DNA from: Candidatus Dadabacteria bacterium
Lineage (GTDB): Bacteria > Desulfobacterota_D > UBA1144 > Nemesobacterales > CSP1-2
Length of the DNA stretch: 64,000 nucleotides
NCBI GenBank assembly: GCA_040289575.1
Contig: PSLL01000006.1
Coordinates: 1-64,000, forward strand
Direction: 5' to 3'
Shown here: positions 5,600 to 30,580 of the stretch, piece after piece
Layout of the letters: each line of letters starts with the position of its first letter
How positions within the stretch are numbered: position 1 is the stretch's first letter
Position numbers and translations under genes: made by a program
The notes under the pieces: model-generated
The model's database searches: none
What the model saw: the letters and a program-made list of their open reading frames with translations, nothing else
What the model was told of the DNA's origin: nothing

Positions 5600-6412
5600 T
5601 TGCAAACGCCATCGAATGGTTTAATAAATAGGGCTTTAATAATCGCCGCCGGACAAGGCAGCAGGCTTCATTCCATAACTAATGGTAACCCCAAACCCCT
5701 AACTCATCTTCTGGGTTTATCCCTAATTGAGAGGGTAATGCTCGGCGTAAAAGAGGCTGGGGTGAATGATTTTGTGATAGTTATCGGCTACCTCGGAGAC
5801 AAGATAAAGGAGAGGTTGGGGAGCGGAACTAAGTACGGGGTAAAGATAACATACGTCGAGAACAACGAATGGCAAAAGGGTAACGGAATCTCCGTTTTAA
5901 AAGCAAAAGAGCTGTTAAACGGAAACAATAAAGAGAAATTTTTTCTCCTTATGTCGGACCATATCTTTGAGTCTAAGGTCCTACAGAATCTAAAAAAGAT
6001 GAATTTAGAAGAAGATAATTGTGCTTTAGTTGTGGATAAATCGCCAAAGGAACATATTGATTTAGACGAAGCGACTAAAGTCAGGATAGAGAACGGACAC
6101 ATAGTAAAGATCGGAAAAAATCTAGAGGATTATAACGGCGTCGACTGCGGTATATTTCTACTTACGCCCTCCATATTTGAGGCACTCGAAGAAAGCAGAA
6201 AGAGCGGAGATGAAACTCTATCCGGAGGGATAAGAATCTTAGGAAAGAATGGAAAGGTGAGACCACTCGACATCCAAGACCACTTCTGGATCGACGTCGA
6301 TACAGAAAACGATTATATAGAAGCCAAAAAGATATTGGTCAAAAGACTAATTCAAGATAATGCCTCATGGAGTAGACAAAGAGTAAAGAAGACCCAGAGA
6401 GCATTAAAATGA
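5600..6412 (+). CDS. Stand-alone NTP transferase, inositol-1-phosphate cytidylyltransferase (IPCT)-like
   Basis: AAGQGSRL..PKPL..LGLSLIERV, GNGISVL, MSDH, DEATKV, GVDCG and WIDVDT motifs. GAGGTG RBS before TTG. Confidence 0.82.
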   Translation: MQTPSNGLINRALIIAAGQGSRLHSITNGNPKPLTHLLGLSLIERVMLGVKEAGVNDFVIVIGYLGDKIKERLGSGTKYGVKITYVENNEWQKGNGISVLKAKELLNGNNKEKFFLLMSDHIFESKVLQNLKKMNLEEDNCALVVDKSPKEHIDLDEATKVRIENGHIVKIGKNLEDYNGVDCGIFLLTPSIFEALEESRKSGDETLSGGIRILGKNGKVRPLDIQDHFWIDVDTENDYIEAKKILVKRLIQDNASWSRQRVKKTQRALK

Positions 6413-6657
6413 AGTCTCCGCTTAGAATTATTTTTCTAAATCACCCGATAATAGATGATGGAGGTCTTGGGAGAAGCCTTTTTTACCCGCTAAGCAAAAC
6501 TAAAATCACACCTTTTTATTCTTGTGGCATTCCTAAAACCACACCCCATACATTGACAACGGTTTTATGTGAGGCAATGTGATAATATCAAAACGGTAGT
6601 ATATAATCTCTTACGTGATATATACTATTAAAATATATAATTCGGAGTTGAAGTAAA

Positions 6658-7904: not shown

Positions 7905-9922
7905 GTGTGATCTATGGTTTTTAATTTATAGAAAGTGTGTGGGATTACAGGATTCTGGGACTTTAGAAAAATAACTACAAAAGCCGATCTCCTGAAGATG
8001 ACAGATACTCTGGCACACAGAGGACCGGATGATTCCGGTATATTCTTCGACTTTAAACAAGGAGTGGGACTCGGCCATAGGAGGCTTGCTATCATTGACC
8101 TCTCTTCCCAAGCAAAACAACCCATGGGAAATGACTCCGGCTCTATATGGGTTACATTCAACGGAGAGATTTATAACTATCGACAGATAAGAGAAGAACT
8201 GGTTTGCAATGGACATCAGTTCAGAACCAATTCTGACACCGAGGTAATTCTAAGGGCATACGAACAGTGGGGTATTGAGTGTATCTCACGGTTTAGAGGC
8301 ATGTTTGCATTCGCACTTTGGGACATCAAACACAATAAACTGTTTCTTGTACGAGACCGTCTCGGTGTAAAACCACTTTACTACTACTGGGATGGTCATC
8401 TGCTCCTATTTGCATCGGAACTAAGGGCTCTTGAGGTCTATCGTGAGTTTAAGAGGGATTTAGACCCACAATCATTGGCACTTTACCTGAGGTTCGGGTA
8501 TGTGCCATCTCCCCGGTGCATATATGCAAATACACATAAGGTGCGCCCTGGATGTTATCTAGAGGTATCCTCAGAGGGTTCATTAAGTGAAGTATGTTAT
8601 TGGAATCTCTTTAAATTCTCCGAGGCCCCCATTATAGAGAGATCAGAGTCGGAGATTGAGCAGGAGTTGGTGTCAATACTGTGTGAGGCTTTTTCATACA
8701 GATTGGTATCGGATGTGCCCGTAGGGATATTCCTAAGCGGTGGGATTGACTCATCCCTGGTAGCAGCCATATTGAAGTGTGAGTTAGGCAAGTCACTGCA
8801 GGCACTCACAGTAGGTTTTGACGAGGCGGAAAAAGACGAGTCTTTTTGGGCAAGAGCCGTAGCCCGGCACCTAGGGATGGAACACACAGAGGTACGCTGT
8901 TCACTACAGGAGGCAATTGAGATTGTGCCTAAGCTTTCGGATATATACGATGAGCCCTTTAGTGACAACTCGGCAATTCCCACATATTTAATATGCAAGA
9001 CAGCAAGGGACTATGTAAAGGTTGTGCTCTCCGGTGATGGTGGAGATGAATTCTTCTGCGGATATAATTTCTATACAGAATATAACTCCTTCTGGGGAAA
9101 AATATCCGCTATACCAATACCGCAACCGGTGCTTTCAAGGGCTGGACGCTCGGGTTGCATGGCATTGGGAACAAAGATCTTTAATCTCTTTTGTCGTCTT
9201 TTCCTTCATGCAGATGCTTATAGTTTAAGTGATAAAATAAACAGATGGTATCCTATACTTACAGCACCCAACTTTGTTGAGGCATACGTTTTATCAAGAA
9301 GCATCTGGTCCCAAGAGCAACTAAAATATCTTGCACCGGATCTCCAATCAGATATTCCATTCAAAGATTTTCCTAGAATTGACTGTGATCCTATTGCGGC
9401 GATGATGCTATTTGATGCTAAGATATACCTCCCAGATGACCTACTCGTGAAGATAGACAGAGCCAGTATGTCGGTAGGACTAGAAGTAAGAGAACCTCTC
9501 TTAGACCACAAATTAGTCGAATATGCCATCTCCCTACCACTCAAATACAAATACTCAAACAAGAAAACCAAATACATACTCAAACGTATCTTATACAAAT
9601 ATCTGCCAAGGGATTTGGTAGATAGACCAAAGAGAGGGTTTGGTGCCCCTCTGGAACAGTGGTTATTAAATGGTTCACTGAAGTCTGTTGTTCTGGATTA
9701 TCTAAATCCGAGGAGAATTCGAGAGCAGGGGATATTCTCTTCTGTATACATACAGAGGATGATGGATGATTTTAGGCAAGGTGTCTGGATCAACCCAAAT
9801 AAGATTTGGAATCTGGTTGCATTTGAACTGTGGTATGAGAGGTGATAGAGGTATGAAAATATCAGTATCGTCAAAAAGGCTTTGGTTTGTGAATCTCATA
9901 ATACTGGTCGTGTCTGTAATCA
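7905..9922 (+). repeat. 2018-bp direct repeat, copy 1 (copy 2 at 18359-20376)
   Basis: Constant offset 10454, identical protein translations. One synonymous difference noticed (8285 C vs 18739 A). Confidence 0.95.
7935..9845 (+). CDS. asnB: Asparagine synthase (glutamine-hydrolysing)-like amidotransferase, copy 1
   Basis: N-terminal MCGI, HRGPD, RRLAIID, LSGGIDSS and SGDGGDE motifs. Glycan-cluster context. Confidence 0.93.
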   Translation: MCGITGFWDFRKITTKADLLKMTDTLAHRGPDDSGIFFDFKQGVGLGHRRLAIIDLSSQAKQPMGNDSGSIWVTFNGEIYNYRQIREELVCNGHQFRTNSDTEVILRAYEQWGIECISRFRGMFAFALWDIKHNKLFLVRDRLGVKPLYYYWDGHLLLFASELRALEVYREFKRDLDPQSLALYLRFGYVPSPRCIYANTHKVRPGCYLEVSSEGSLSEVCYWNLFKFSEAPIIERSESEIEQELVSILCEAFSYRLVSDVPVGIFLSGGIDSSLVAAILKCELGKSLQALTVGFDEAEKDESFWARAVARHLGMEHTEVRCSLQEAIEIVPKLSDIYDEPFSDNSAIPTYLICKTARDYVKVVLSGDGGDEFFCGYNFYTEYNSFWGKISAIPIPQPVLSRAGRSGCMALGTKIFNLFCRLFLHADAYSLSDKINRWYPILTAPNFVEAYVLSRSIWSQEQLKYLAPDLQSDIPFKDFPRIDCDPIAAMMLFDAKIYLPDDLLVKIDRASMSVGLEVREPLLDHKLVEYAISLPLKYKYSNKKTKYILKRILYKYLPRDLVDRPKRGFGAPLEQWLLNGSLKSVVLDYLNPRRIREQGIFSSVYIQRMMDDFRQGVWINPNKIWNLVAFELWYER

Positions 9923-11214: not shown

Positions 11215-12342
11215 ATGAGAATAGCATACATAACGAACTCCCATATTCCATCTGTATATGCAAACGGCATACAGACAATGAAGATGTGCGAAGCCATTGT
11301 CGGTCTTGGACACGAACTTACGCTTCTTGTCCCCCCTAATGAAAAAGAGGATATTCAAATTAAAGATGGTGATACACTTAGTTTTTATGGTGTGGAAAAG
11401 GTATTTGAAATTAAAGTAACTCCATTTAGGAGAAAATCTTTTCATGCTCTTGTCTCATCTATCTATGCTAAGCTCAAGAATGTAGACCTATGCTACACAA
11501 GATGTGATTATGCAGCGTATTTTGCGTCGAGACTCGGTATTTCAACTGTTTTTGAAGCCCATAAGCCTTTTTCTCCAAAGTTAGGAACTAGAATCAACCC
11601 ATCACTGCTTTTTAATTCGCCCTACTTGAAACTGGTATCTATCTCAAATTCCCTTACAAAACTCTATATACAGAACTATAATGTAAATCCCCAAAAGATA
11701 ATTACAGAACATGACGGAGTGGATTTAGAAAAATTCACCGCACTCCCAACAAAAGAGGAACTGAGGAGAGAACTCAATCTCCCACAAGATAAAAGAATAA
11801 TCTGCTATACGGGGAGTCTCTATAGAGGAAGAGGGATAGAACTACTGCTTTTAGCATCTAAAAAACTACCCCCAGACTCACTTGTCCTCCTTGTCGGGGG
11901 AAGAACGGAAGATTTAGAGAAATACAAACGTATAGCACTCAATATGGGCTGTACAAGTGTACACTTTACCGGATTCGTTCCAAACAACACCGTTCCAAAA
12001 TACCTTGTAGCATCCGACGTTTTAGTGATGCCATATCAAAGTGGTGCAGAAGACCCCAGCGGATGCGTAATAGCCGATTTTTTCTCCCCGCTTAAGATGT
12101 TTGAGTACATGGCTTCGGGCAGACCAATTATTGCATCAGACCTCGGTGTAATAAAAGAGATACTTAGGGACAGAGAAAATGCCATTCTCTTCGATCCTTC
12201 AGATGAGGTTGCATTTCTCAATGCAATAAAGATCGCATTGGAAGATAGGGAACTGGCTCAAAGAATCTCAAGAAACGCTCAAGAGGAGGTAAAAAAACAT
12301 ACTTGGGCTAAGAGGGCTCAGGAGATTTTCTCTTTTTTATAG
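11215..12342 (+). CDS. GT4 glycosyltransferase
   Basis: ANGIQTMKMC, HDGVD, GRGIE and SPLKMFEYMASG motifs. Confidence 0.92.
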   Translation: MRIAYITNSHIPSVYANGIQTMKMCEAIVGLGHELTLLVPPNEKEDIQIKDGDTLSFYGVEKVFEIKVTPFRRKSFHALVSSIYAKLKNVDLCYTRCDYAAYFASRLGISTVFEAHKPFSPKLGTRINPSLLFNSPYLKLVSISNSLTKLYIQNYNVNPQKIITEHDGVDLEKFTALPTKEELRRELNLPQDKRIICYTGSLYRGRGIELLLLASKKLPPDSLVLLVGGRTEDLEKYKRIALNMGCTSVHFTGFVPNNTVPKYLVASDVLVMPYQSGAEDPSGCVIADFFSPLKMFEYMASGRPIIASDLGVIKEILRDRENAILFDPSDEVAFLNAIKIALEDRELAQRISRNAQEEVKKHTWAKRAQEIFSFL

Positions 12343-16840: not shown

Positions 16841-16870
16841 GAACAGATAACCAGTAGCTGTTTGTTTATA

Positions 16871-18254: not shown

Positions 18255-18309
18255 ATTACAAAAGTTTAATCTTTATTTCATGCTTCTGTCATAATCGTCT
18301 GGTTAAAGT
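18255..18309 (+). promoter_or_regulatory. OmpR/CusR-type box array plus -10 (site 1)
   Basis: ATTACA-aaag-TTTAAT-N5-TTTCAT-N5-TGTCAT-N11-TAAAGT. Confidence 0.7.
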
Positions 18310-18388
18310 CTAAGTCTCTAATTCTAGAGTAATACTTGGAATTACCGAATATTTAAGAGTGTGATCTATGGTTTTTAATTTATAGAAA

Positions 18389-20299
18389 GTGTGTGGGATT
18401 ACAGGATTCTGGGACTTTAGAAAAATAACTACAAAAGCCGATCTCCTGAAGATGACAGATACTCTGGCACACAGAGGACCGGATGATTCCGGTATATTCT
18501 TCGACTTTAAACAAGGAGTGGGACTCGGCCATAGGAGGCTTGCTATCATTGACCTCTCTTCCCAAGCAAAACAACCCATGGGAAATGACTCCGGCTCTAT
18601 ATGGGTTACATTCAACGGAGAGATTTATAACTATCGACAGATAAGAGAAGAACTGGTTTGCAATGGACATCAGTTCAGAACCAATTCTGACACCGAGGTA
18701 ATTCTAAGGGCATACGAACAGTGGGGTATTGAGTGTATATCACGGTTTAGAGGCATGTTTGCATTCGCACTTTGGGACATCAAACACAATAAACTGTTTC
18801 TTGTACGAGACCGTCTCGGTGTAAAACCACTTTACTACTACTGGGATGGTCATCTGCTCCTATTTGCATCGGAACTAAGGGCTCTTGAGGTCTATCGTGA
18901 GTTTAAGAGGGATTTAGACCCACAATCATTGGCACTTTACCTGAGGTTCGGGTATGTGCCATCTCCCCGGTGCATATATGCAAATACACATAAGGTGCGC
19001 CCTGGATGTTATCTAGAGGTATCCTCAGAGGGTTCATTAAGTGAAGTATGTTATTGGAATCTCTTTAAATTCTCCGAGGCCCCCATTATAGAGAGATCAG
19101 AGTCGGAGATTGAGCAGGAGTTGGTGTCAATACTGTGTGAGGCTTTTTCATACAGATTGGTATCGGATGTGCCCGTAGGGATATTCCTAAGCGGTGGGAT
19201 TGACTCATCCCTGGTAGCAGCCATATTGAAGTGTGAGTTAGGCAAGTCACTGCAGGCACTCACAGTAGGTTTTGACGAGGCGGAAAAAGACGAGTCTTTT
19301 TGGGCAAGAGCCGTAGCCCGGCACCTAGGGATGGAACACACAGAGGTACGCTGTTCACTACAGGAGGCAATTGAGATTGTGCCTAAGCTTTCGGATATAT
19401 ACGATGAGCCCTTTAGTGACAACTCGGCAATTCCCACATATTTAATATGCAAGACAGCAAGGGACTATGTAAAGGTTGTGCTCTCCGGTGATGGTGGAGA
19501 TGAATTCTTCTGCGGATATAATTTCTATACAGAATATAACTCCTTCTGGGGAAAAATATCCGCTATACCAATACCGCAACCGGTGCTTTCAAGGGCTGGA
19601 CGCTCGGGTTGCATGGCATTGGGAACAAAGATCTTTAATCTCTTTTGTCGTCTTTTCCTTCATGCAGATGCTTATAGTTTAAGTGATAAAATAAACAGAT
19701 GGTATCCTATACTTACAGCACCCAACTTTGTTGAGGCATACGTTTTATCAAGAAGCATCTGGTCCCAAGAGCAACTAAAATATCTTGCACCGGATCTCCA
19801 ATCAGATATTCCATTCAAAGATTTTCCTAGAATTGACTGTGATCCTATTGCGGCGATGATGCTATTTGATGCTAAGATATACCTCCCAGATGACCTACTC
19901 GTGAAGATAGACAGAGCCAGTATGTCGGTAGGACTAGAAGTAAGAGAACCTCTCTTAGACCACAAATTAGTCGAATATGCCATCTCCCTACCACTCAAAT
20001 ACAAATACTCAAACAAGAAAACCAAATACATACTCAAACGTATCTTATACAAATATCTGCCAAGGGATTTGGTAGATAGACCAAAGAGAGGGTTTGGTGC
20101 CCCTCTGGAACAGTGGTTATTAAATGGTTCACTGAAGTCTGTTGTTCTGGATTATCTAAATCCGAGGAGAATTCGAGAGCAGGGGATATTCTCTTCTGTA
20201 TACATACAGAGGATGATGGATGATTTTAGGCAAGGTGTCTGGATCAACCCAAATAAGATTTGGAATCTGGTTGCATTTGAACTGTGGTATGAGAGGTGA
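18389..20299 (+). CDS. asnB: Asparagine synthase-like amidotransferase, copy 2 (identical protein)
   Basis: 636-aa translation identical to 7935-9845. Confidence 0.93.
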   Translation: MCGITGFWDFRKITTKADLLKMTDTLAHRGPDDSGIFFDFKQGVGLGHRRLAIIDLSSQAKQPMGNDSGSIWVTFNGEIYNYRQIREELVCNGHQFRTNSDTEVILRAYEQWGIECISRFRGMFAFALWDIKHNKLFLVRDRLGVKPLYYYWDGHLLLFASELRALEVYREFKRDLDPQSLALYLRFGYVPSPRCIYANTHKVRPGCYLEVSSEGSLSEVCYWNLFKFSEAPIIERSESEIEQELVSILCEAFSYRLVSDVPVGIFLSGGIDSSLVAAILKCELGKSLQALTVGFDEAEKDESFWARAVARHLGMEHTEVRCSLQEAIEIVPKLSDIYDEPFSDNSAIPTYLICKTARDYVKVVLSGDGGDEFFCGYNFYTEYNSFWGKISAIPIPQPVLSRAGRSGCMALGTKIFNLFCRLFLHADAYSLSDKINRWYPILTAPNFVEAYVLSRSIWSQEQLKYLAPDLQSDIPFKDFPRIDCDPIAAMMLFDAKIYLPDDLLVKIDRASMSVGLEVREPLLDHKLVEYAISLPLKYKYSNKKTKYILKRILYKYLPRDLVDRPKRGFGAPLEQWLLNGSLKSVVLDYLNPRRIREQGIFSSVYIQRMMDDFRQGVWINPNKIWNLVAFELWYER

Positions 20300-20306
20300 T
20301 AGAGGT

Positions 20307-20376
20307 ATGAAAATATCAGTATCGTCAAAAAGGCTTTGGTTTGTGAATCTCATAATACTGGTCGTGTCTGTAATCA
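20307..20376 (+). pseudogene. Truncated 5' fragment of the SGNH hydrolase carried by the duplication
   Basis: MKISVSSKRLWFVNLIILVVSVI, then the repeat ends and a stop follows. Confidence 0.85.
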
Positions 20377-20463
20377 GATAGAACTGCAACAATCCCAGAT
20401 CGCGAACCTCAAAAATTAATCTCTTTCCCCATCCAAAGCCACTAATTGAAATTCCCTTATATT

Positions 20464-20491
20464 TTGACCTCCAATAAAACTAAAGTAAAAT
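20464..20491 (+). promoter_or_regulatory. Sigma70-like promoter of the two-component operon
   Basis: TTGACC-N16-TAAAAT. Confidence 0.5.
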
Positions 20492-20513
20492 AGTTTTGAG
20501 TTTGGAATAAGAG

Positions 20514-21185
20514 ATGCGCATTTTAATTGTAGAAGATGATAAGAAGACCGCAGCCTACCTCTCTAAGGGGCTATCGGAGAGCGGATTTATTGTAGACACC
20601 ACAGATAAGGGGGAGGAGGGGCTTCGCCTTGCATGCACATTGGATTACGACCTCATCATCCTCGATGTAATGCTCCCGGGACGGGACGGATGGTCGATTA
20701 TTACCGAGATAAGACGCAGCGGCAAGCAAACCCCCGTTCTGTTTCTGACTGCGCGTGACTCGGTTCAGGACCGAGTCAAAGGGCTAGAACTCGGCGCAGA
20801 TGACTACTTAATAAAGCCCTTTGCATTCTCAGAACTCCTTGCCCGAACGCGTTCAATACTCCGTCGCAGTCCTGTGCGCCAGCCCGAAATACTGCGCATA
20901 TCAGACCTAGAGATTGACCTTCTGAGATACAAGGCAACACGAGGTGGAAAGCACCTTGACCTTACACCGAAGGAGTTTGCTCTTCTATCGCTTCTTGCTC
21001 GGCGTATTGGTGAGGTTCTATCAAGAACGCTTATTGCCGAGCAGGTCTGGGACATGAACTTCGACAGCGACACAAATGTAGTAGATGTGGCAGTCCGTCG
21101 TCTTCGCAGAAAAGTGGATGATCCATTCGAAAAGAAGCTCATTCACACGGTTCGCGGGGTAGGATATGTCCTCGAAGACAAATAA
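20514..21185 (+). CDS. Heavy-metal-type OmpR-family response regulator (CusR/CzcR-like)
   Basis: [36 protein letters not shown] and HTVRGVGY motifs. Confidence 0.93.
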
Positions 21186-22704
21186 TAAGAAGATTAGAAT
21201 AGCCATCTTACCTCACCGTGCATTCTGGTCATCAATAACAGGTAGGCTGACCATCTTATATACTCTATCGGCTTTTGTAATGCTTATTATATCCACCCTG
21301 TTTTTATACCGTGTGCTTGTAAGCGGTCTAGAAACAGAAGACAACGAATTCATAGACGATAAAATTCACGTTCTTCAGGATATATTGCAGAAGAATCCCT
21401 ACAATGTAGAAGCCCTAAAAGAGGAGATAAAATGGGAAAGAGCCTCCCTTGGGTCTTCTCAGTACTATATCAGGATTCTGGATGAAAAAGGGCATACTCT
21501 GATTGAAACCCCCGGTATGGATAATATAATTAATGCCTCTTTGTTTCCGCATCTAACCAATGATAGGGATCCACCGAAGGAGATAAAATGGAGATCGCCC
21601 CAAGGCAGAGCCTATTTTCTAAAAACGGCATGGGCAGAAACTACTTCCTTCCAAGATGAACATCATCCAAAGGAAATGTTAAAAAGCCTTGGGTTTGATG
21701 TTAACCCCATTCAAAGAGAAAGGAGGCTTTTGCAGATTGCCCTAGATGTATCAGATGACGAAGCCCTAGTATCAGATTATCGCCGGAAATTATTAACTGT
21801 ACTCCTCTTAGGGGTCTTATTCTCAGCCGCAGCAGGTGTCATCGTTGCCCACAAAGGAATGCACCCATTAAAAGAAATTACGAAGGCAGCCCAAAGGATC
21901 AAAGCAACCCAGCTTCATGAACGGATTAGTCCAACACGATGGCCTAATGAGCTGGCGGAACTTGCCACCGCCTTTGACGAGATGCTTGATCGTCTAGAGA
22001 ATTCCTTCAACCAGCTATCTCAATTCTCAGCAGACCTAGCCCATGAGTTACGCACACCGATCAATAACCTCATGGGTGAGGCTGAAGTAGCCCTTTCCAG
22101 AACCAGAACCATTGATGAATATAGGCATGTGCTTGAATCGAGTCTTGAGGAGTACGGTAGACTCTCACGCATGATTGATAGCTTGCTTTTCCTAGCGCGA
22201 GCCGAAAGCAGAGACACCTATATCAAACGCTCTATATTTAACGCCTTTAAAGAGATCAAAGTAGTTCAGGAGTTTCATGAATCTGTAGCTGAAGAACAGG
22301 GGATCGAGGTTACCTGCCAGGGCAATGCACTGTTAAATGCAGATCCAATCCTATTTCGACGAGCGGTAAGCAACCTTCTCTCCAATGCCATTCAGTACAC
22401 CCCACGCGGCGGGAAGGTTACGCTTTCAGTTAAGCAGATAAACAATGGATGCGTTGAAGTCAGTGTAAGCGATACGGGCTCCGGTATTGATCCGGAACAC
22501 CTTCCAAGGATTTTTGACCGCTTCTATAGAGCCGACCGTGCCCGATCCCAACACCCGCAGGGTGCAGGACTGGGATTAGCAATTGTCAAATCCATTATGG
22601 ACCTCCACGGCGGCACAGTCACAATTGAGAGCAAACCTAATGAGGGAACAACAGTTATCCTAAGATTCCCAAACAGCCTAACCCATAGGATTACACAAGT
22701 GTAA
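21166..22704 (+). CDS. Heavy-metal-type sensor histidine kinase (CusS/CzcS-like)
   Basis: 2 TMs, [27 protein letters not shown] and GLGLAI motifs. Confidence 0.93.
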
Positions 22705-22744
22705 TCCTTCTCTCATTTTCTCGTCACCATATGACTGATACGAT
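22690..22744 (+). promoter_or_regulatory. OmpR/CusR-type box array plus -10 (site 2)
   Basis: ATTACA-caag-TGTAAT-N5-TCTCAT-N5-CGTCAC-N11-TACGAT. Confidence 0.75.
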
Positions 22745-22900
22745 TAGAATATTTACAATGAAAAGACGGGGGCCGTTTACCGAGTTTGCCCGAACTCTGT
22801 TTCTCTATCTAATAATCAATGCGATTTTTATTTTATTCGATGTGGTTTAAAATCCCTGTCGGCGTTTGTTAGGGCGCAGTGACAGAGAAGATATTTGTAA

Positions 22901-23881
22901 ATGAGAGTCGCGTGTATAGCAAATTCATGGATTCCCTCAGTATATGCCAATAGCATACAGGTAATGAAGATGTGTGGGGCAATTGCCAGTCTCGGACACG
23001 AGGTGACTCTCTCTATAGGTACTAATGAAAAAGAACAGATTCAACTCAAAGAAGGTGATATATTCAGCTCATACGGTGTAGAAAGAATATTCGAAATTAA
23101 AAAAATACCATTAAGAATAAATTCCATACATGCTTTCATCTCTTCGGTCTATGCCAAACTCAAGAAAACAGAGCTATGTTATACAAGAAGCATTTACGCA
23201 GCTTCCCTTATACCAAGGCAGAGAATAATTACAAAACGCAATGGAGTGGACATAGAGAGATTCAATAAACTCCCAACAAAAGAGGAACTGAGGAGAGGAC
23301 TCAATCTCCCTCAAGATAAAAGAATAATCTGCTATGCAGGAAGCCTCTACAGAGGAAGAGGAATAGAGCTTCTGCTATCGGTGTCCAGGAAACTACCCAT
23401 TGATCTACTTATGCTCATTGTCGGTGGGAGGAGGGGGGATTTAGATAGATACAAAGGTATGGCACTCAATATGGGTTGTACAAACGTAGAGTTTAGAGGG
23501 TTTGTACCAAACAGCACAGTTCCAAGGTACCTGGTGGCATCTGATGTACTAGTGATGCCATATCAGAGCAGTGCAGAAGACCCTAGCGGGCGCGTACAGG
23601 CCAATTATATGTGCCCAATGAAGATGTTTGAGTACATGGCTTCAGGTAGGCCAATAGTGGCATCAGACCTCGGTATAATAAGGGAGGTGCTCAGGGACAG
23701 AGAAAATGCCATTCTCTTCGATCCTTCAGATGAGGTGGGATTATTCAATTCGATAATGGTTGCATTGGGGGACAGGGAATTAGCTCAAAAGATTGCAAAA
23801 AATGCCCAAGAAGAGGTGAAAAAATATACTTGGACCGAGAGAGCCAAATCAGTAATTTCTTTCTCAACCGAAGAAACCTAA
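22901..23881 (+). CDS. GT4 glycosyltransferase paralog with ~48-aa in-frame internal deletion
   Basis: Close paralog of 11215 and 31985. CYTRSIYAASL is joined directly to IPRQRIITK. Confidence 0.85.
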   Translation: MRVACIANSWIPSVYANSIQVMKMCGAIASLGHEVTLSIGTNEKEQIQLKEGDIFSSYGVERIFEIKKIPLRINSIHAFISSVYAKLKKTELCYTRSIYAASLIPRQRIITKRNGVDIERFNKLPTKEELRRGLNLPQDKRIICYAGSLYRGRGIELLLSVSRKLPIDLLMLIVGGRRGDLDRYKGMALNMGCTNVEFRGFVPNSTVPRYLVASDVLVMPYQSSAEDPSGRVQANYMCPMKMFEYMASGRPIVASDLGIIREVLRDRENAILFDPSDEVGLFNSIMVALGDRELAQKIAKNAQEEVKKYTWTERAKSVISFSTEET

Positions 23882-23980
23882 ATATTTAAGAATACAAATC
23901 ATACAGATAAAAGACAGGGTCATTTTTACAATGAAGATTTTGTCGGCAGAAAATAAATATATTAAAAGAAATTCCAAAAC

Positions 23981-25405
23981 GTGTTAATGGTAAAGAAGTC
24001 GTATTTTCTGATTATTACAATTTTAATCATCTCACAGGGGTGCGCGGCATACCAACGAATGTCTCTGGATCACTCCACAGTTGCACAGAGACTAATGCCA
24101 CCAAGTATGGAGACCATTCGGATTGAGGCAAAAAAGATTAAACACCCTATATTAAAACCCATTGAATTTAACTACTGTGATGGGCTTTCTGCTGATGAAG
24201 CGGCTATTCTAGCAGTCCTTGTAAACCCTAAGCTACGCGCTATTCGTGACCAAAGAGGGATCGCGGCGGCTCAACTCATTCAAGCCGGTATCCTTCCCAA
24301 CCCACAACTCTCATATAGTCTAGATATACCTACGGGAGGAAATACACAGGGCACAATCAATGCCTTTGGTTTGGGATTCAGTTGGGATATTACCTCTATT
24401 ATTGCGCGAGGGGCAAAACTAGATGCAGCCCGAGCTCACGCCATTTCAGTAGACCTCGATGTGGCCTGGCAGGAATGGCAGATGGCAGAGGCAGCTAAGA
24501 TGCATGTGTTCCGCTTAATACTAATTGAAAAGCAATTGGCTTTATCAAGAGAATCAGAGAAAGGACTTATGGAGAATCTGGCAGTTGTTAATCAAGCATT
24601 CAATCTCGGGGAAAAGACAGTGCTGGATTTATCAGCCGCAGAGGCAGCCTTAGATCAGGCCCGACTCTCAGTGCTAACCCTGGAGCAGGAACAGGAGCAC
24701 GAGCGATTGGCACTAAATCAGACGCTGGGTCTCCCACCGGATTATATAGTCCCGATTCAAAGGGACATCGTTTTTTCCAACTGGCAGGCTCTTCCATCCG
24801 TGATAGACATTATGAACACAGTTGCAGAGCACCGTCTCGATCTTCTTGCACTCAAGATGGGATATGAAAGCCAAGAGGCAAATCTCAGGACAGCAATACT
24901 CTCACAGTTCCCTAAAATAAATATCGGTTTTCACCATTCACGCGACACAACAAATGTTGTAACCACAGGCTTTGGTATCACTTTAGATCTCCCATTTTTC
25001 GACCGCAACCAGGGTCAAATCGCCATTGAGCGGGCAACGCGCAAACAACTCTTTGATGAGTATATAGCCCGTCTATTTGAGGCACAATCAGAGGTTGCGC
25101 GTATAGTGTCAGATATAGAATCCGCCCAACAACAACTCGGCGCAATTGAGAAGTCCCTGCCGGCATTAGAACGCCTAGTTCAGACCTACCATATGGCCGT
25201 AGAGGGAAATAATGCTGATATCCTGAGTTATTATGAGGCAAGAAATACCCTGCTCTCTAAGCAGATCGATGCCCTTAGATTGAAACGCGATCTAACTGAT
25301 CTTGGTATCACCCTTGAGATCGCCGCAGGGCAATACTTCCCTGGCTATGATCTTTCCCGATCCCCTTCTCCTGAGCGAATAGATAGAAAGGAAATAACAA
25401 AATGA
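23981..25405 (+). CDS. TolC-family outer membrane efflux lipoprotein
   Basis: Lipobox SQGC, LPNP and LPFFDRNQG motifs. Operonic with MFP and RND. Confidence 0.9.
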   Translation: MLMVKKSYFLIITILIISQGCAAYQRMSLDHSTVAQRLMPPSMETIRIEAKKIKHPILKPIEFNYCDGLSADEAAILAVLVNPKLRAIRDQRGIAAAQLIQAGILPNPQLSYSLDIPTGGNTQGTINAFGLGFSWDITSIIARGAKLDAARAHAISVDLDVAWQEWQMAEAAKMHVFRLILIEKQLALSRESEKGLMENLAVVNQAFNLGEKTVLDLSAAEAALDQARLSVLTLEQEQEHERLALNQTLGLPPDYIVPIQRDIVFSNWQALPSVIDIMNTVAEHRLDLLALKMGYESQEANLRTAILSQFPKINIGFHHSRDTTNVVTTGFGITLDLPFFDRNQGQIAIERATRKQLFDEYIARLFEAQSEVARIVSDIESAQQQLGAIEKSLPALERLVQTYHMAVEGNNADILSYYEARNTLLSKQIDALRLKRDLTDLGITLEIAAGQYFPGYDLSRSPSPERIDRKEITK

Positions 25406-26526
25406 AACGAGCGAAATGGAGAACCGTCCTCGTCTTAGTCATTAGCGTTATGGTGATAGTTGTGTATATATGCTTTTTTCACATTAGTACAAAGGTTTCA
25501 ATAAAGAACAATACCAATCTCGGGGCCCAAACAACTGAAAGCCACGGGGTTTATGAACCAGTAGCTACTGTACGGGCAGTTCCAGTCAAAAAAGTGGCCA
25601 TCACAGAAAGCATTACTGCTTATGGAACGGTCATCCCAGCACCCGGGGGAATAGAGGTTATGTCTCTGCCGTTTGAAAGCCGTATCCGCCGCATCCTTGT
25701 CAGTAGTGGGCAGCGGGTCTCTAGAGGAGATGTTCTTCTCGAAATAGAACCGAGTCCTGATACACGTCTTCAAATAGAAGAGGCAAGCAATAATGCCGAA
25801 TCGGCAAAACAAGCACTCAAACACGTACAGCAGCGGTTTGATATCAAATTGGCTACCAACCAGGAACTGCTGCAGGCAAAGCAGGCATTCCAGGAAGCAT
25901 GGATACGCCTTGAAAGCCTTAAAAAGAGGGGCATTGGACAGAAGCGCCAAATCCAGTCAACTGTCGAAGGTGTTGTCAATAAGGTAGCCGTCCAAGAGGG
26001 CTCTATTGTGTCAGCCGGTGGCACGCTCCTAGAAATCCTTTCCCAAAATCGTGCTGAAGTCCGACTGGGAATTGAGCCGGAAGATGTAAAATACCTACAA
26101 GTAGATCAAACAGTTTCACTGTCTTCTGTCAACACGCCCAAATCCCGTTCTGTCATGGGTCGAATTCGCGCAATTTCGCAATCAATCAATCCAGCCACAC
26201 GTCTTATTGATGTCTTTGTTAATCTACCGGCATCCGCTAATAACCAATTCCTCCTAAATGAATATGTCAAAGGACAAATAGAGATTGCATCAAAGGTAGG
26301 GTTTATAGTTCCCCGTAATGCAGTATTGCCGGAAAACAGTGGTCATTACGTTCTATTTACTGTCAAAGACGGCCGTGCAAAAAAGCACACTGTACAAATG
26401 GGTTTAGAAGATGGAAAAGAAGTCGAGGTAATAGACAGCGGCCTTCAGCCTGGCGACCTCGTAGTAACCCTTGGCAATTATGAATTAAAGGACGGCATGG
26501 CAGTCAAATTAGAGGTCTCTCAATGA
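25402..26526 (+). CDS. RND efflux periplasmic adaptor (MFP)
   Basis: N-terminal TM, lipoyl half motifs, coiled coil, GDLVVTLG. ATGA overlaps with neighbours. Confidence 0.9.
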   Translation: MKRAKWRTVLVLVISVMVIVVYICFFHISTKVSIKNNTNLGAQTTESHGVYEPVATVRAVPVKKVAITESITAYGTVIPAPGGIEVMSLPFESRIRRILVSSGQRVSRGDVLLEIEPSPDTRLQIEEASNNAESAKQALKHVQQRFDIKLATNQELLQAKQAFQEAWIRLESLKKRGIGQKRQIQSTVEGVVNKVAVQEGSIVSAGGTLLEILSQNRAEVRLGIEPEDVKYLQVDQTVSLSSVNTPKSRSVMGRIRAISQSINPATRLIDVFVNLPASANNQFLLNEYVKGQIEIASKVGFIVPRNAVLPENSGHYVLFTVKDGRAKKHTVQMGLEDGKEVEVIDSGLQPGDLVVTLGNYELKDGMAVKLEVSQ

Positions 26527-29500
26527 AATTTACTAACTGGATATATGTCCATCGTCGTTCGATCCTTTTCTTAATGGCGGTACTGACCTTAGGTGGGCTG
26601 GCAAGCACTCTCAAACTCCCCGTAGCCCTCTTCCCCTACGTAGATTTCCCCCGTGTAGTAGTGAGCCTCGATGCCGGAGATCGTCCGGCAGAGCGCATGG
26701 TCTTTGAGGTGACCAGGCCGATTGAGGAGGCAGTGCGAGCTGTCCCCGGCGTGCGCAGTGTGCGTTCTACTACGAGTAGGGGAAGTGCCGATATATCCAT
26801 TGATTTCGACTGGGGTGAAGACATGGTAGCAGCCATGTTACAGATAGAGTCTGCAATCAACCAGGTAATGCGGGGTTTACCACAGGGAACCACATTCAAT
26901 GTGAGGCGCAGCGACCCTACGGTCTTCCCGGTGCTGGCATATAGCCTAACCTCTGACACACACTCATTAGTTGAGTTGCGTGATATTGCGCTATATCAAT
27001 TGCGGCCATTGCTTTCAACTGTAAAAGGGGTAGCTAAGGTCGGAGTTTTAGGCGGCAATCAGGAAGAATATCGGGTAACCGTAGACCCGGCACGGCTAGA
27101 TTCCTTCAGTCTGTCAATAGACGATGTGGCAAAGGCCCTTTCCGCCGCCAATGTTATTACCGCGGTAGGTCGTATGGAAGACCACTATAAGCTCTACCTA
27201 GTCATATCGGATACCCAACTGCGTAACCTAGAGCAGATTCGCGAAACTATAATACATTCGGGAGAAAACGGTGTAGTGAGATTAGATGATGTCGCTACTG
27301 TCAGCCCGGGGACAGTACCCCAGTTTACACGCGTCACCGCCGATGGCCACGATGCTGTGATCTTTCAAGTATACCAGCAACTAAACGGCAATACCGTGCA
27401 GATAGCGAATAATATAAAGAATAAGCTCAATGAATTTCGCAACCAGTTACCACTGGACATAAATATCGCCAACTGGTATGACCAGAGTGAATTGATCATC
27501 TCCTCTGCTACCAGCGTACGCGATGCCATACTTATAGGTATTGTGCTTGCGACATTAATCCTATGGCTATTCCTGCGCAACCTAAAGGTTACACTAATTG
27601 TCATAATCTCTGTGCCTAGCGTACTGGCAGCTGCCATCTTAATGCTCTACGTGTTACACATGAGCTTCAATATCATGACTCTTGGCGGCATGGCAGCAGC
27701 CGTGGGACTTATCATTGATGATACTATAGTCATTGTAGAACACATTATTCGTAGGATACGTGGGGGTACCAATGATTACAGAGATGGGATTATGAGTGCT
27801 GCCCGAGAGTTTACTAAGCCTCTTGCTGGTTCATCCGCCTCTACTATTATCATTTTTGCACCCCTGGCATTCCTCTCCGGGGTAACCGGAGCTTTTTTCA
27901 AATCGCTCTCTCTTACTATGGCCACTAGCCTCATTACCTCCTTCCTCATTGCCTGGCTGGCCACACCGCTTCTTGCGAATTACCTACTTAATCAGAAGGA
28001 TGCCAATCAAAAAGAGGGCGGTACGCTGACAGAGCAAGTACACAAGGCCTATGAGGCTATTATGCGCCGTATACTGGAACATCAATGGCTAGTGCTATTG
28101 GTTGTAGCACCATTGATTATTGTAGGTTGGCTGGGCTACAGGCAAGTTGGCTCCGGTTTTATACCGGCGATAGATGAGGGAGGCTTCGTCCTCGACTACC
28201 GGACGGCACCGGGAACCTCCCTCACAGAGACGGATCGTCTGCTGCGGCGTGTAGAGACAATTCTCCAAACAATCCCAGAGGTAAACACATATTCCCGACG
28301 TACAGGTCTGGCACTAGGGGGGTTTCTTACCGAAGCTAATGAAGGCGATTTCTTCGTACGTCTCAAGCCGTTTCCACGTCGAGGTATAGAGTCTGTCATG
28401 GATGATGTGCGTACACAGATAGAACGCTCGATTCCAGGATTAGATATTGAATTAGCCCAGCTAATGGAAGACCTCATCGGTGATCTCACAGGTGTGCCCC
28501 AACCAATTGAGATCAAACTCTATTCTGACGATGGCGAACTACTGCGTAGGCTAGGGCCGCAGGTGGCTGAAGCTATAGAGAAAATCCCAGGTGTGGTGGA
28601 TGTGCGCAGCAGCATTATTCTCGCTGGCGATGCTCTGGATATTAAGGTAGAAAGGGTAAAAGCAGCGATAGAGGGAGTGGACCCTGAATCAGTCACTCAC
28701 ATGATTTCCGACTACTTAAGCGGTGTGGTCACCACACAGGTGCAGCGTGGCCCAAAGATGATAGGGGTACGGGTGTGGATACCGGGCGATACACGCTCTA
28801 TGGAGCGTGATCTAGAGAACCTGCGCCTGCGTGCCCCGGATAGCCACCTATTTCCTCTCAAGCGCATAGCAACTATTACTACAATCACCGGTCAGCCACA
28901 GATAACGCGTGATGACCTCAAACAAATGGTCGCTGTTACAGGTCGCATCAGCGGGCGGGATATAGGTACAGTAGTCAGAGATGTCAAAAACGTATTAAAC
29001 CATCCTGGACTGGTGCCCAAGGGGGTGTACTACAGCCTAGGTGGGCTTTATGCACAGCAACAGATCGCATTCGCTGGACTTACCACCGTCTTTGTTGCAG
29101 CAATAGTTCTCGTTTTCTCACTCGTGCTTTTTCTCTATGAAAGCTTCCGTGCAACATTTGCTATCATTGCTACTACACTAATAGCCCTATCGGCAGTTTC
29201 TATCGGTCTATGGTTAACCGGCATGGAGATTAATATATTCTCCATTATGGGTATGACCATGCTTGTAGGCATTGTAACGGAGGTAGCTATCTTCTATTTT
29301 TCCGAATACAACGATTTGCCTAAAGACCTAGATAGAAATACCGCATTAATAATGGCGGGAAAGAACCGTATGCGCCCTATAGCAATGACAACACTTGCTG
29401 CCATTCTGACCCTTATGCCACTAGCTTTAAAGATTGAGCCGGGCTCCGCCATACAACAGCCATTGGCGATCGCCATTATTTCTGGGCTGGTCGTGCAATT

Positions 29501-29555
29501 ACCGCTTGTATTAATTCTATTGCCGGTTTTTCTTGCCATTCTAAGACCCAGTTGA
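26523..29555 (+). CDS. RND efflux permease (AcrB/CzcA superfamily)
   Basis: 1010 aa; GLIIDD, RMRPIAMTT and QPLAIAIISGL motifs. Confidence 0.93.
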   Translation: MKFTNWIYVHRRSILFLMAVLTLGGLASTLKLPVALFPYVDFPRVVVSLDAGDRPAERMVFEVTRPIEEAVRAVPGVRSVRSTTSRGSADISIDFDWGEDMVAAMLQIESAINQVMRGLPQGTTFNVRRSDPTVFPVLAYSLTSDTHSLVELRDIALYQLRPLLSTVKGVAKVGVLGGNQEEYRVTVDPARLDSFSLSIDDVAKALSAANVITAVGRMEDHYKLYLVISDTQLRNLEQIRETIIHSGENGVVRLDDVATVSPGTVPQFTRVTADGHDAVIFQVYQQLNGNTVQIANNIKNKLNEFRNQLPLDINIANWYDQSELIISSATSVRDAILIGIVLATLILWLFLRNLKVTLIVIISVPSVLAAAILMLYVLHMSFNIMTLGGMAAAVGLIIDDTIVIVEHIIRRIRGGTNDYRDGIMSAAREFTKPLAGSSASTIIIFAPLAFLSGVTGAFFKSLSLTMATSLITSFLIAWLATPLLANYLLNQKDANQKEGGTLTEQVHKAYEAIMRRILEHQWLVLLVVAPLIIVGWLGYRQVGSGFIPAIDEGGFVLDYRTAPGTSLTETDRLLRRVETILQTIPEVNTYSRRTGLALGGFLTEANEGDFFVRLKPFPRRGIESVMDDVRTQIERSIPGLDIELAQLMEDLIGDLTGVPQPIEIKLYSDDGELLRRLGPQVAEAIEKIPGVVDVRSSIILAGDALDIKVERVKAAIEGVDPESVTHMISDYLSGVVTTQVQRGPKMIGVRVWIPGDTRSMERDLENLRLRAPDSHLFPLKRIATITTITGQPQITRDDLKQMVAVTGRISGRDIGTVVRDVKNVLNHPGLVPKGVYYSLGGLYAQQQIAFAGLTTVFVAAIVLVFSLVLFLYESFRATFAIIATTLIALSAVSIGLWLTGMEINIFSIMGMTMLVGIVTEVAIFYFSEYNDLPKDLDRNTALIMAGKNRMRPIAMTTLAAILTLMPLALKIEPGSAIQQPLAIAIISGLVVQLPLVLILLPVFLAILRPS

Positions 29556-29612
29556 TGTATAGAATTTCAAACTTACATCAACTACCTATTTCTCGCCGTC
29601 CCAAGCCATAAA

Positions 29613-29667
29613 ATTACAAATTTGTAATCTTCCTGTTATGTTCCTGTATTTGTCACCTGTGTAGTGT
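29613..29667 (+). promoter_or_regulatory. OmpR/CusR-type box array plus -10 (site 3)
   Basis: ATTACA-aatt-TGTAAT-N5-TGTTAT-N5-TGTATT-N11-TAGTGT. Confidence 0.75.
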
Positions 29668-29738
29668 TTATACCTTAAAATGATAAGGGATCAAATCACA
29701 AGAGTTGGAGCCAGGCTCCGAAAATGGGGTGAAATAAC

Positions 29739-30512
29739 ATGAAGGCAATTATACTTGCTGCAGGTCGGGACATTACACTATATCCGTATACCAGGTACAT
29801 ACCTACGTGCCTCCTCAATATTGGCGGCAAGACCATACTAGAGCATCAGATCAACTGTACAAGAAACTGTAGGATTAATGAGATGATAATAGTAGTCGGA
29901 TTCGGACTCGAGAAGGTAGAGAACTTCTTAAGAAATTACGGCGGCTCAGGAATGAAAATAAAAACTCTCCATAATCCATTCTATCAAAATACAAGCAGTC
30001 TCATTTCTCTGTGGATAGCAAGAGGAGAGATGAACGAAGACACAGCAGTTATAGATGGAGATAATCTATTTGAGATTGAGGTACTTAAGCGGACCCTCAG
30101 GGTGAGAGATGAGAAGACATGTCTTTGTGTAAAGAGGGAACCTATATATCAGAGGGAGAATACAAATGTATTAATCATAAGAGGCAGGGTGGTAAGGATT
30201 GGCGAAAATCTAACCACCCCTTCAGCCAAATCAGTAGGGATAAGTGTCCACAGAGGCACAGACGTAGAGCTACTTAAGAGAGCAGTAGAGGAGGAGATAC
30301 GCACAGAGGGTGCAGAGAAAAGGCGTTATACTTCTGCAATACAGAGACTCATTGGGAGAGGACACAGTGTAAAATCCGTTGACATAGGGGAGCTATTTTG
30401 GATGGATGTAAACTATCCGAGTGACCTCTCTAAGGCCAGATTTAATTCAGCTGAGTTTATAAGAAGGCCCCAACGAGAAAGAGTCCTTAGGGTTGTAGAG
30501 ACGGGTTTGTAA
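29739..30512 (+). CDS. Divergent paralog of the 2875 NTP transferase with altered catalytic motifs
   Basis: Collinear with 2875, but GRGSRL>GRDITL, PK>PT, EEDMKV>RENTNV and DVD>DVN. Confidence 0.8.
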   Translation: MKAIILAAGRDITLYPYTRYIPTCLLNIGGKTILEHQINCTRNCRINEMIIVVGFGLEKVENFLRNYGGSGMKIKTLHNPFYQNTSSLISLWIARGEMNEDTAVIDGDNLFEIEVLKRTLRVRDEKTCLCVKREPIYQRENTNVLIIRGRVVRIGENLTTPSAKSVGISVHRGTDVELLKRAVEEEIRTEGAEKRRYTSAIQRLIGRGHSVKSVDIGELFWMDVNYPSDLSKARFNSAEFIRRPQRERVLRVVETGL

Positions 30513-30517
30513 ATATA

Positions 30518-30580
30518 ATAAACCATGAAATACTTATAGCAATTGGCATGGATATAGATATCGAGAAGTTAAATTCATAG
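30518..30580 (+). pseudogene. Remnant of the 5' end of the 3658 CDP-alcohol phosphotransferase
   Basis: INHEILIAIGMDIDIEKLNS* versus MDHAILVAAGTGIDGERLNSH; ATG changed to ATA. Confidence 0.75.

What the first reader, a model, noticed from the sequence alone, without database searches (positions are those of the whole stretch)
18255..30580. Three identically spaced two-component-type promoters each precede a duplicated envelope-modification gene
Seen: three sites share the geometry ATTACA-N4-T(G/T)TAAT-N5-hexamer-N5-hexamer-N11-TAnnnT (18255-18309, 22690-22744, 29613-29667). That is a dyad, 11-bp-phased direct repeats, and a -10 with no canonical -35. The first gene after each site is a copy of a gene found earlier in the window: asnB copy 2 (of 7935), the GT4 at 22901 (close paralog of 11215, sitting between the kinase and tolC), and the NTP transferase at 29739 (of 2875). 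I did not see such arrays before the originals, whose operons carry TTGACA-type promoters. Known: 11-bp-phased repeats ending about 10 bp before the -10 are typical of OmpR/PhoB activators, and the dyad resembles Cus/Cop boxes. Inference: copies of glycan/phospho-modification genes were recruited at least three times into the regulon of the adjacent CusRS-like system. The copies differ greatly in divergence, so the events differ in age. This would couple surface remodelling to RND efflux under metal or acid stress.
Basis: partly seen in the sequence, partly recalled or inferred. Interest (0 to 1): 0.85.

Follow-up and report, generated by a model that had tools for sequence, protein, structure and literature searches.

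The report
Metal-sensor promoters over surface-sugar genes
The three promoters are real and of a known heavy-metal-sensor type; two of the genes behind them are damaged in this genome, but the third belongs to an old pair of amidotransferase genes that stay nearly identical except for one 100-residue patch, which hints at a stress-triggered change of the cell-surface sugar.

Summary
The three sites are real, unique in the genome and match the published LciR/CusR/UzcR promoter element beside a TIGR01387/TIGR01386 pair. The scan noted this promoter class before in Nitrospira (e1-7861217). The story of three recruited copies of different age fails. Boxes 2 and 3 are standard parts of a mobile regulator-kinase-RND module. 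The gene behind box 3 is a drifting pseudogene at the ancestral site. The GT4 behind box 2 is an old paralogue, intact in relatives but missing 52-53 residues here. The asnB duplication is real (twice the depth) but probably not young. In three runs the copies diverge over residues 378-478, and close homologues carry two patch types there on flanks up to 97% alike, which points to gene conversion and a probably collapsed assembly. Coupling to glycan genes still has support. A sister species has boxes before an apparently intact GT4 and before its GT-asnB operon. The kinase lacks the CusS copper ligands. Best reading: a ColRS-like envelope response wired onto a CusRS-family module. Binding, signal and phase are untested.

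The parts
18255..18309 (+). Box 1: dyad, two 11-bp-phased repeats and a -10 (TAAAGT); exact match to the UzcR site CATTAC-N6-TTAA; not a module-end box
18331..20376 (+). Duplicated segment: asnB leader, asnB and the first 70 nt of the SGNH gene. Identity to copy 1 starts at 18359; 18331-18358 is ancestral leader kept in G001 and lost from copy 1
18389..20299 (+). asnB copy 2, AsnB-type glutamine amidotransferase (TIGR01536 above cut-off; AsnB/TsnB9 fold)
19522..19821 (+). Divergent patch, residues 378-478: two paths at about single-copy depth in the runs; two sequence types (A, B) among close homologues; both window copies show type A
20464..20491 (+). Sigma-70-like site (TTGACC-16-TAAAAT, 10 of 12) before the regulator; consensus match only
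20514..21185 (+). Heavy-metal response regulator (TIGR01387, 348 bits, cut-off 279); 59% identical to E. coli CusR
21166..22704 (+). Heavy-metal-family sensor kinase (TIGR01386, 443 bits, cut-off 293); CusS His42/Phe43/His176 not conserved
22690..22744 (+). Box 2, overlapping the kinase 3' end; same position in G001, G008, G009, G011
22901..23881 (+). GT4 glycosyltransferase between box 2 and tolC; old paralogue lineage; in-frame loss of 52-53 residues in this genome
23981..25405 (+). TolC-type outer membrane factor (74% to the G011 orthologue)
25402..26526 (+). RND periplasmic adaptor (TIGR01730 above cut-off)
26523..29555 (+). RND permease; below the CusA/CzcA cut-off (440 of 701 bits), substrate unknown
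29613..29667 (+). Box 3, exact LciR-type dyad; same position after the orthologous RND in G011
29739..30512 (+). Decaying nucleotidyltransferase (G11D, R13T, K23T, D226N); at the ancestral position beside GT30791 and livFG; its sigma-70 promoter is replaced by box 3
30516..30576 (+). Relic of the 5' end of the CDP-alcohol phosphotransferase gene (3658), start codon lost
7935..9845 (+). asnB copy 1 in the resident glycan operon; the patch equivalent is 9068-9367
6409..7830 (+). Relic of a deleted 418-aa GT4 (6409-6525) followed by GT6658; in G001 the GT4 is whole and a box stands directly before the GT6658 orthologue
11215..12342 (+). Intact GT4, sister lineage of 22901 (70% amino-acid identity, dS about 1.0)
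2875..3651 (+). Intact nucleotidyltransferase with sigma-70 promoter, at a position specific to this genus

Best explanation
The three sites are promoters of the known CusR/CopR/LciR/UzcR class. The phosphorylated regulator at 20514 binds the dyad and two phased repeats and activates RNA polymerase at a -10 that has no -35 (inferred from the tested LciR element). Boxes 2 and 3 belong to a mobile regulator-kinase-box-TolC/adaptor/RND-box module that settled inside a duplication-prone surface-glycan cluster (shown by synteny). In this genus the regulon then gained two kinds of glycan gene: a GT4 placed ahead of tolC, and an AsnB-type amidotransferase. The gene behind box 3 is a bystander that has decayed. 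The two asnB genes are an old pair, kept alike by gene conversion except for a helical patch of about 100 residues in the synthetase domain, which exists in two types (shown in homologues and in read graphs). Inferred working: an envelope signal turns on efflux together with one amidotransferase type, which amidates a sugar acid and lowers the negative charge of the surface, as ColRS and PmrAB do with other enzymes. The signal is probably a divalent cation or pH rather than Cu(I). In this particular genome only the asnB copy and the pump look intact.
For: Motif specificity: leave-one-out and a matrix from other genomes only. Published element with the same anatomy: PMC6989116. The pattern occurs in 5 of 120 phylum genomes; these are the 5 of 41 that hold the kinase; the pattern was derived from those genomes, so only the absences are independent. 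G011 has regulator-kinase-box-tolC-adaptor-RND-box-radical SAM. G001 has box 2 before a GT4 with no deletion over the 157 codons assembled (dN/dS about 0.15 over 106 shared codons), and a 47-bit box with a -10 at offset 49 before its GT6658-asnB operon. So asnB is downstream of a box in both species by different layouts. Contig length 31069 is listed for asnB type A (P0132), asnB type B (P0010), a 79% kinase orthologue (P0141) and a GT11215 orthologue (P0171). Lengths 47991 and 27911 are each listed for an asnB type A and a kinase. P0132 and P0010 are 97% alike outside the patch, with no difference in residues 22-377, and 39% alike inside. Flank and patch trees reject each other (AU p 1e-38 and 1e-7). 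The read bubble covers the same residues. Decay of 29739: 32 of 140 invariant sites changed, against 0-11 in 13 intact orthologues, and at the same rate as variable sites (27 of 115).
Against: No binding, transcript start or expression was measured. Of 17 non-module genes between 2875 and 33109, 16 look glycan-related and 7 have a close paralogue in the window, so three paralogues behind three boxes has a chance of about 0.05 even without selection. Two of the three downstream genes are damaged here. G008, G009 and G011 have the kinase but no box before a GT4 or asnB. Among 41 boxes outside this genus whose next gene was identified, 0 were GT4 or AsnB and 14 were TolC or RND. Shared contigs in the third lineage are inferred from equal lengths only; I did not see those contigs, so boxes there are unseen. 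Which patch type lies behind box 1 is not phased. The regulator has its own sigma-70-like site. The substrate of the amidotransferase is inferred from gene neighbourhood and the Bordetella precedent, not shown.
Confidence: 0.55

Rival explanations
1. Passive landing. The module inserted into a glycan cluster, its promoters face whatever gene was next to them, and none of the glycan genes is a selected target. Box 1 and the G001 box are strays.
For: Box 3 fits this fully. The cluster is dense in paralogues and decays often. G001 has two further boxes in G001-specific insertions, one before a 348-aa protein without a Pfam hit and one before no clear gene. The GT4 behind box 2 has been broken in this genome.
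Against: Box 1 and the G001 GT6658 box are not at module ends, score 38 and 47 bits (outgroup range 26-56) and keep the -10 at offset 49. The box 2-GT4 junction is shared by two species with dN/dS about 0.15. The asnB pair appears linked to the kinase in further assemblies.
Confidence: 0.25
2. One reading: working copies of three envelope genes were recruited behind existing boxes at three different times, the asnB copy most recently.
For: All three next genes have paralogues earlier in the window. The GT4 did enter between box 2 and tolC (G011 lacks it). The 29739 frame is still open, which neutral drift of this depth allows only about 1 time in 10.
Against: 29739 is as far from 2875 (dS about 2.4) as orthologues of other genera, has lost conserved motifs and lies at the ancestral site. 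22901 lacks 52-53 residues. The asnB pair carries patch types shared across species, so its identity does not date it.
Confidence: 0.08
3. The A/B patch is allelic or strain variation at one locus, or simple divergence left where conversion is blocked, with no difference in function. The second copy serves gene dosage under stress.
For: The patch is the least conserved part of the whole family: no near-invariant column between Y380 and D494 in 120 homologues. Conversion stalls at divergent sequence whether or not selection acts. The window assembly and one further protein record (P0121) show only type A.
Against: Within each type the patch is 57-88% conserved across species, while between types it is 31-44%. 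Each path has about single-copy depth between double-depth flanks in X1 and X2.
Confidence: 0.2
4. Assembly artefact: the second asnB, or the placement of the genes behind the boxes, does not exist.
For: The genome is a metagenome bin in 126 contigs. The window differs from the runs at about ten shared positions, and the inside of the repeat looks collapsed.
Against: Single contigs span macB to box 1 to asnB (14000-18388), kinase to box 2 to GT4 (21044-23722) and GT4 to RND to box 3 to 29739 (23707-33500) in X1 and X2. One contig spans 17172-19521 in X3. Depth doubles over the repeat. G001 shares the box 2-GT4 junction and the copy 2 leader. X1 and X2 are flagged as possible sources of this DNA; X3 and X4 are not.
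Confidence: 0.03

Closest known systems
Legionella LciRS and its LciR element (PMC6989116; passages and sections 7 and 12 read, Fig. S3 not seen)
   Same: Dyad ATTACAAnnTTGTAAT plus two short repeats at a fixed distance from a -10. Box 3 matches the dyad with 0 mismatches, boxes 1 and 2 with 2 each. A CusRS-family pair on a mobile island that controls a non-metal gene.
   Different: LciS has a 28-residue His/Cys sensor for copper; this kinase has a roughly 170-residue sensor without conserved His or Cys. The target there is one effector gene; here a pump and glycan genes.
E. coli CusRS and Pseudomonas CusRS/CopRS/CzcRS (PMC11195947 and PMC12589874, passages read)
   Same: Families TIGR01387 and TIGR01386; regulator 59% identical to CusR with a nearly identical DNA-binding region; related palindromes; adjacent RND pump.
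   Different: His42/Phe43/His176 absent. The pump is not a CusA/CzcA by cut-off. The pump promoter lies at the kinase 3' end instead of in a divergent cusR-cusC gap.
Caulobacter UzcRS (review PMC8963506, passages read; primary paper not held)
   Same: Box 1 is an exact CATTAC-N6-TTAA site. The regulon is made of envelope proteins and efflux pumps.
   Different: UzcR binds 57 regions; here only three sites stand out in the genome. Orthology to UzcRS was not tested.
Pseudomonas ColRS and Salmonella PmrAB (PMC4074579, passages read)
   Same: Works alike: a metal-responsive two-component system turns on enzymes that lower or alter surface charge (ArnT-like, phosphoethanolamine transferase).
   Different: Different enzymes (GT4 and AsnB-type amidotransferase). 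The regulator here scores as TIGR01387, and the regulon is local and coupled to an RND pump.
Glutamine amidotransferases of O-antigen loci such as Bordetella WbmC/WbmI/WbmZ (PMC2615507, passages read)
   Same: Amidotransferase genes within a glycan locus, in several copies, proposed to make uronamides; amidation lowers negative charge.
   Different: No sequence comparison with Wbm proteins was made. I found no report of a pair homogenised except for one patch, or of control by a metal-family sensor.

Membership tests
LciR/CusR-type activated promoter | 16-bp dyad ATTACA(A)nn(T)TGTAAT or a close variant | tested here: met
   0, 2 and 2 mismatches of 14 specified bases; dyad scores 20-26 bits against an outgroup median of 24
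LciR/CusR-type activated promoter | Two short conserved repeats between dyad and -10, and a -10 at a fixed distance | tested here: met
   Repeats score within the outgroup range; TAnnnT at offset 49 in 3 of 3 sites, against 25 hits at offset 49 and 14 at offset 48 among 40 outgroup boxes
LciR/CusR-type activated promoter | Bound by the adjacent regulator and needed for induction | not testable with these tools
   Needs EMSA and reporter assays
Heavy-metal two-component system (TIGR01387/TIGR01386) | Both proteins above the curated cut-offs | tested here: met
   348 over 279 and 443 over 293 bits
CusRS proper (Cu(I)/Ag(I) sensor) | Sensor site His42-Phe43-His176 | tested here: not met
   Aligned positions read Leu, Glu and an acidic residue (residues named in PMC12589874)
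CusRS proper (Cu(I)/Ag(I) sensor) | CusR and CusS equivalog cut-offs and a CusA/CzcA pump | tested here: not met
   300 of 420, 300 of 423 and 440 of 701 bits
ColRS/PmrAB envelope-modification regulons | ColS/PmrB-type sensor with the ExxE iron/zinc motif | not tested
   The sensor is rich in conserved acidic residues but was not aligned with ColS; the regulator is below the PmrA cut-off (201 of 330)
ColRS/PmrAB envelope-modification regulons | Targets that modify envelope lipids or glycans | tested here: inconclusive
   GT4 and AsnB behind boxes in 2 species; PAP2, ArnT-like, sulfatase or phospholipid methyltransferase as first or second gene after 6 of 40 scanned boxes elsewhere; regulation not shown
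AsnB-type class II glutamine amidotransferase | N-terminal Cys2 glutaminase domain plus synthetase domain with SGGxDS and SGDGxDE motifs | tested here: met
   TIGR01536 497 over 267; motifs conserved; fold matches TsnB9 and AsnB
AsnB-type class II glutamine amidotransferase | Amidates a uronic acid of a surface glycan | not testable with these tools
   Neighbourhood only: a TviC-like epimerase at 13383, below cut-off
Working LicC/IPCT-type nucleotidyltransferase (gene 29739) | GxGxRL motif, Lys of PK, metal-binding Asp residues | tested here: not met
   G11D, R13T, K23T, D109N, D226N at positions invariant in 13 orthologues; LicC keeps GxGxRL and PK; catalytic roles recalled
Working GT4 glycosyltransferase (gene 22901) | Complete N-terminal Rossmann domain | tested here: not met
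   52-53 residues missing that are present in all 26 other sequences of the alignment; loss of activity inferred

The most novel reading that the evidence does not exclude
A CusRS-family sensor that has lost the copper site switches the chemistry of the surface glycan. It induces one of two amidotransferase genes that are kept identical by gene conversion except for a 100-residue acceptor-recognition patch, and the two patch types are maintained across species by selection. That would be a regulated specificity swap on a shared enzyme chassis, and the pair would mark where AsnB-like enzymes of glycan loci choose their acceptor.
Probability: 0.3. Interest if true: 0.72.

Novelty: new variant of a known kind. 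Interest (0 to 1): 0.5.

Why it matters
The promoter class and the idea of metal-triggered envelope change are known. What would be new is the route: glycan amidation and a GT4 under a CusRS-family module with an acidic, non-copper sensor, in an uncultured soil lineage. The A/B pair is a natural experiment on acceptor choice in AsnB-like enzymes of glycan loci. It is also a warning that near-identical paralogues in metagenome assemblies can be old and can hide a collapsed divergent patch.

Tried and rejected
No RNA holder was listed for the stretch; this says nothing on expression. A single-sequence fold of 22901 was uninformative (pLDDT 36). The sensor domain found no solved relative by sequence. 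The scan of viral contigs with a type B protein gave only distant relatives, and 0 of 119 other phylum genomes held a close asnB orthologue to phase the types. G001 has only the first 80 or so bases of its asnB assembled. The metagenome pattern scan gave 4 loci, all module-end boxes: 2 after a kinase, one of them before a radical SAM gene, and 2 after an RND gene. A common origin of box 1 and the G001 GT6658 box (a deletion of GT6658 between box and asnB leader) is possible: it is the best upstream flank match of 9 (2 of 300 shuffles reach it), but four other boxes also give low values, so it stays open. C-terminal residues did not phase the patch types. Rejected: assembly artefact for gene placement; a genome-wide common motif; Cu(I) sensing by the CusS site; dating the asnB copy by its identity. 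Literature searches for a precedent returned none by title and abstract start; most subscription papers are outside the library, and the primary UzcR paper is not held. Supplements were not read; Fig. S3 of PMC6989116 would bear on the exact spacing.

Full report
Setting. The window is the start of contig C20 of a 3.06-Mb bin in 126 contigs. One of the closest named kinase relatives is titled Candidatus Dadabacteria (L048), and earlier notes on this genome use the same name. The 4 runs with half or more of the sampled words are soil metagenomes of 2 studies.

The sites. All three have the stated layout. A matrix from any two ranks the third above all other positions among 6.1 million, on both strands. 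A matrix built only from 40 boxes of other genomes gives 46, 38 and 33 bits, and the next site in the genome has 19. The layout is published. The LciR element is the dyad ATTACAAnnTTGTAAT with two short repeats before the -10, and mutating any part removed or nearly removed induction (PMC6989116, passages). Box 3 matches that dyad exactly, boxes 1 and 2 with two mismatches each, and box 1 is an exact UzcR site, one of 3 in the genome (motif from the review PMC8963506). Related palindromes are bound by Pseudomonas CusR, CopR and CzcR (PMC11195947, passages). The regulator and kinase pass TIGR01387 and TIGR01386 but not the CusR or CusS equivalogs. The kinase lacks His42, Phe43 and His176 of CusS, and its sensor keeps acidic residues instead. 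A signal other than Cu(I) is therefore likely; which one is open.

Boxes 2 and 3 belong to the module. The kinase was found in 5 of 41 genomes, and a box overlaps or follows its 3' end in all five. The pattern was found in the same five and in none of the other 115 of 120 phylum genomes, with no hit for the reversed control. The pattern was made from these genomes, so only the absences count. G011 has regulator, kinase, box, tolC, adaptor, RND, box and a B12 radical SAM gene. In 80 loci around kinase relatives, 50 boxes were found in 45 loci and 0 in reversed sequence. I followed 48 of the 50, dropping one tandem duplicate and one at a locus edge, and identified the next gene for 42. Fourteen were TolC or RND. 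Six of the 40 scanned with Pfam had PAP2, ArnT-like, sulfatase or phospholipid methyltransferase as first or second gene. None outside this genus had GT4 or AsnB.

Box 3 faces a dead gene. 29739 is as far from 2875 at synonymous sites (dS about 2.4) as orthologues of other genera are. It has changed 32 of 140 positions that are invariant in 13 orthologues, against 0 to 11 in leave-one-out tests of those orthologues, and novel residues appear at variable positions at the same rate (27 of 115). The changes include G11D, R13T, K23T and D226N. A second copy in G014 also shows 20 such changes. An open frame survives this much drift about 1 time in 10, so weak selection on the frame is not excluded. 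It is followed by a relic of the next gene. In G008 the order is nucleotidyltransferase, phosphotransferase, a hydroxylase, GT30791, GT4, livF, and in G005, G011 and G013 the pair abuts livF. So 29739 is at the old position, and box 3 replaced its sigma-70 promoter.

Box 2 and the GT4. The GT4 entered between box 2 and tolC before the split from G001, which shares the junction. Over 106 shared codons dN is 0.029 and dS 0.198. The lineage has whole members (P0182, P0188, and G001 as far as assembled) and is separate from the 11215 lineage. In this genome 52-53 residues of the N-terminal domain are missing; the runs show no indel there, so the loss is real. Box 2 still serves the pump.

Box 1 and asnB. 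The repeat is real: depth is about 54 against 27 in X1 and 43 against 19 in X2, and contigs branch at 18359 and 20376. The SNP proposed for telling the copies apart is not seen in 4 of 4 runs. In X1, X2 and X3 a second path leaves at about 19522 and rejoins at 19822. In X1 the two paths have depths 23.5 and 27.5, in X2 14.2 and 13.3. The letters between were not given; an X4 contig runs on for 49 unlike letters at that point with no joint, which favours replacement over deletion. The stretch is residues 378-478, the least conserved part of the family, helical and partly of low confidence in a model of mean pLDDT 92 whose fold is AsnB/TsnB9. The 9 closest homologue clusters (78-83% identity) fall into two types there: 5 like the window (A) and 4 unlike it (B). 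Identity within a type is 57-88%, between types 31-44%, while flanks are 82-96% regardless of type; the flank tree and the patch tree reject each other. The same length is listed for a 79% kinase orthologue and a GT11215 orthologue. Lengths 47991 and 27911 each pair a type A protein with a kinase. I did not see these contigs; sharing is inferred from length alone. The simplest reading is an old pair under gene conversion, with the window assembly showing type A twice. A strain in which conversion has covered the patch cannot be excluded, since the window differs from the runs at about ten shared positions.

Is asnB a target? In G001 a 47-bit box with a -10 at offset 49 stands before the GT6658 orthologue, with asnB next on the same strand. 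G001's asnB leader matches the leader of copy 2 from 18331, and copy 1 has lost 20 bases of it. This genome and G002 have lost the upstream GT4 and have no box there; the kinase was not found in G002 (92% complete). So in both species that have the kinase an asnB lies behind a box that is not a module end. Against this, the cluster is so rich in glycan paralogues that three such neighbours have a chance near 0.05, G001 has two more boxes in unrelated insertions, and G008, G009 and G011 show no such link.

Mechanism. Shown: motif, families, synteny, decay of two genes, two patch types. Inferred: binding and activation; a non-copper signal; amidation of a sugar acid. In Bordetella, glutamine amidotransferases of the O-antigen locus are the candidates for uronamide formation, and more amides mean fewer negative charges (PMC2615507, passages). 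ColRS and PmrAB lower surface charge under metal excess with ArnT and phosphoethanolamine transferases (PMC4074579, passages). The locus most likely works like those systems while being a member of the CusRS family in the wide sense, not of CusRS proper.

Novelty. The promoter class is known, and the scan noted it before in Nitrospira. Searches for a heavy-metal regulator over AsnB or GT4 genes, and for converted amidotransferase paralogues, gave no matching title or abstract; the library lacks most subscription papers. Verdict: a new variant of a known kind, interest 0.5, resting on the A/B pair rather than on the three boxes.

Noticed in passing
window 5150-5260: A third, short relic of the nucleotidyltransferase gene with its TTGACA-17-TATAAG promoter and first codons; this gene has been duplicated locally more than once.
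   Followed up: partly
window 16871-18085 (-): The MacB-type permease divergent from box 1 is separated from its ATPase, adaptor and TolC genes, which lie on contig C19 in this genome but directly upstream in G005 and G003. Control by the box 1 dyad is untested.
   Followed up: partly
L010 14136-15692; L166 2679-3068; L008 6012-7430: B12-binding radical SAM genes of two different kinds follow the box in G009, in one metagenome locus and in G011; possibly lipid-modifying targets of the same system.
   Followed up: no
L089, L097, L107 (after the kinase-end box): A HAD-like protein of about 610 residues follows the box in three loci (cut by the contig end in L097); it resembles FkbH-type proteins (recalled), and in L107 a phospholipid methyltransferase comes next.
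   Followed up: no
L037 8216-9350 (G001): A 52-bit box without a clear -10 precedes a 348-aa glycine-rich repeat protein with no Pfam hit, inside a G001-specific insertion.
   Followed up: partly
L039 4083-4500 (G002): The orthologue of the 2875 nucleotidyltransferase is a pseudogene with large deletions in G002, while the next gene is whole.
   Followed up: no
window 23707-23833 and about 12020-12150: 22901 and 11215 share a near-identical stretch in their 3' halves and are closer there (dS 0.9) than in their 5' halves (dS 1.6), a hint of conversion between the GT4 paralogues too; it also produces one chimeric protein record, P0123.
   Followed up: partly
window 21166-22704: The kinase sensor has a 20-residue insertion found only in the closest relatives (P0140, P0141, P0142, P0189).
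   Followed up: no
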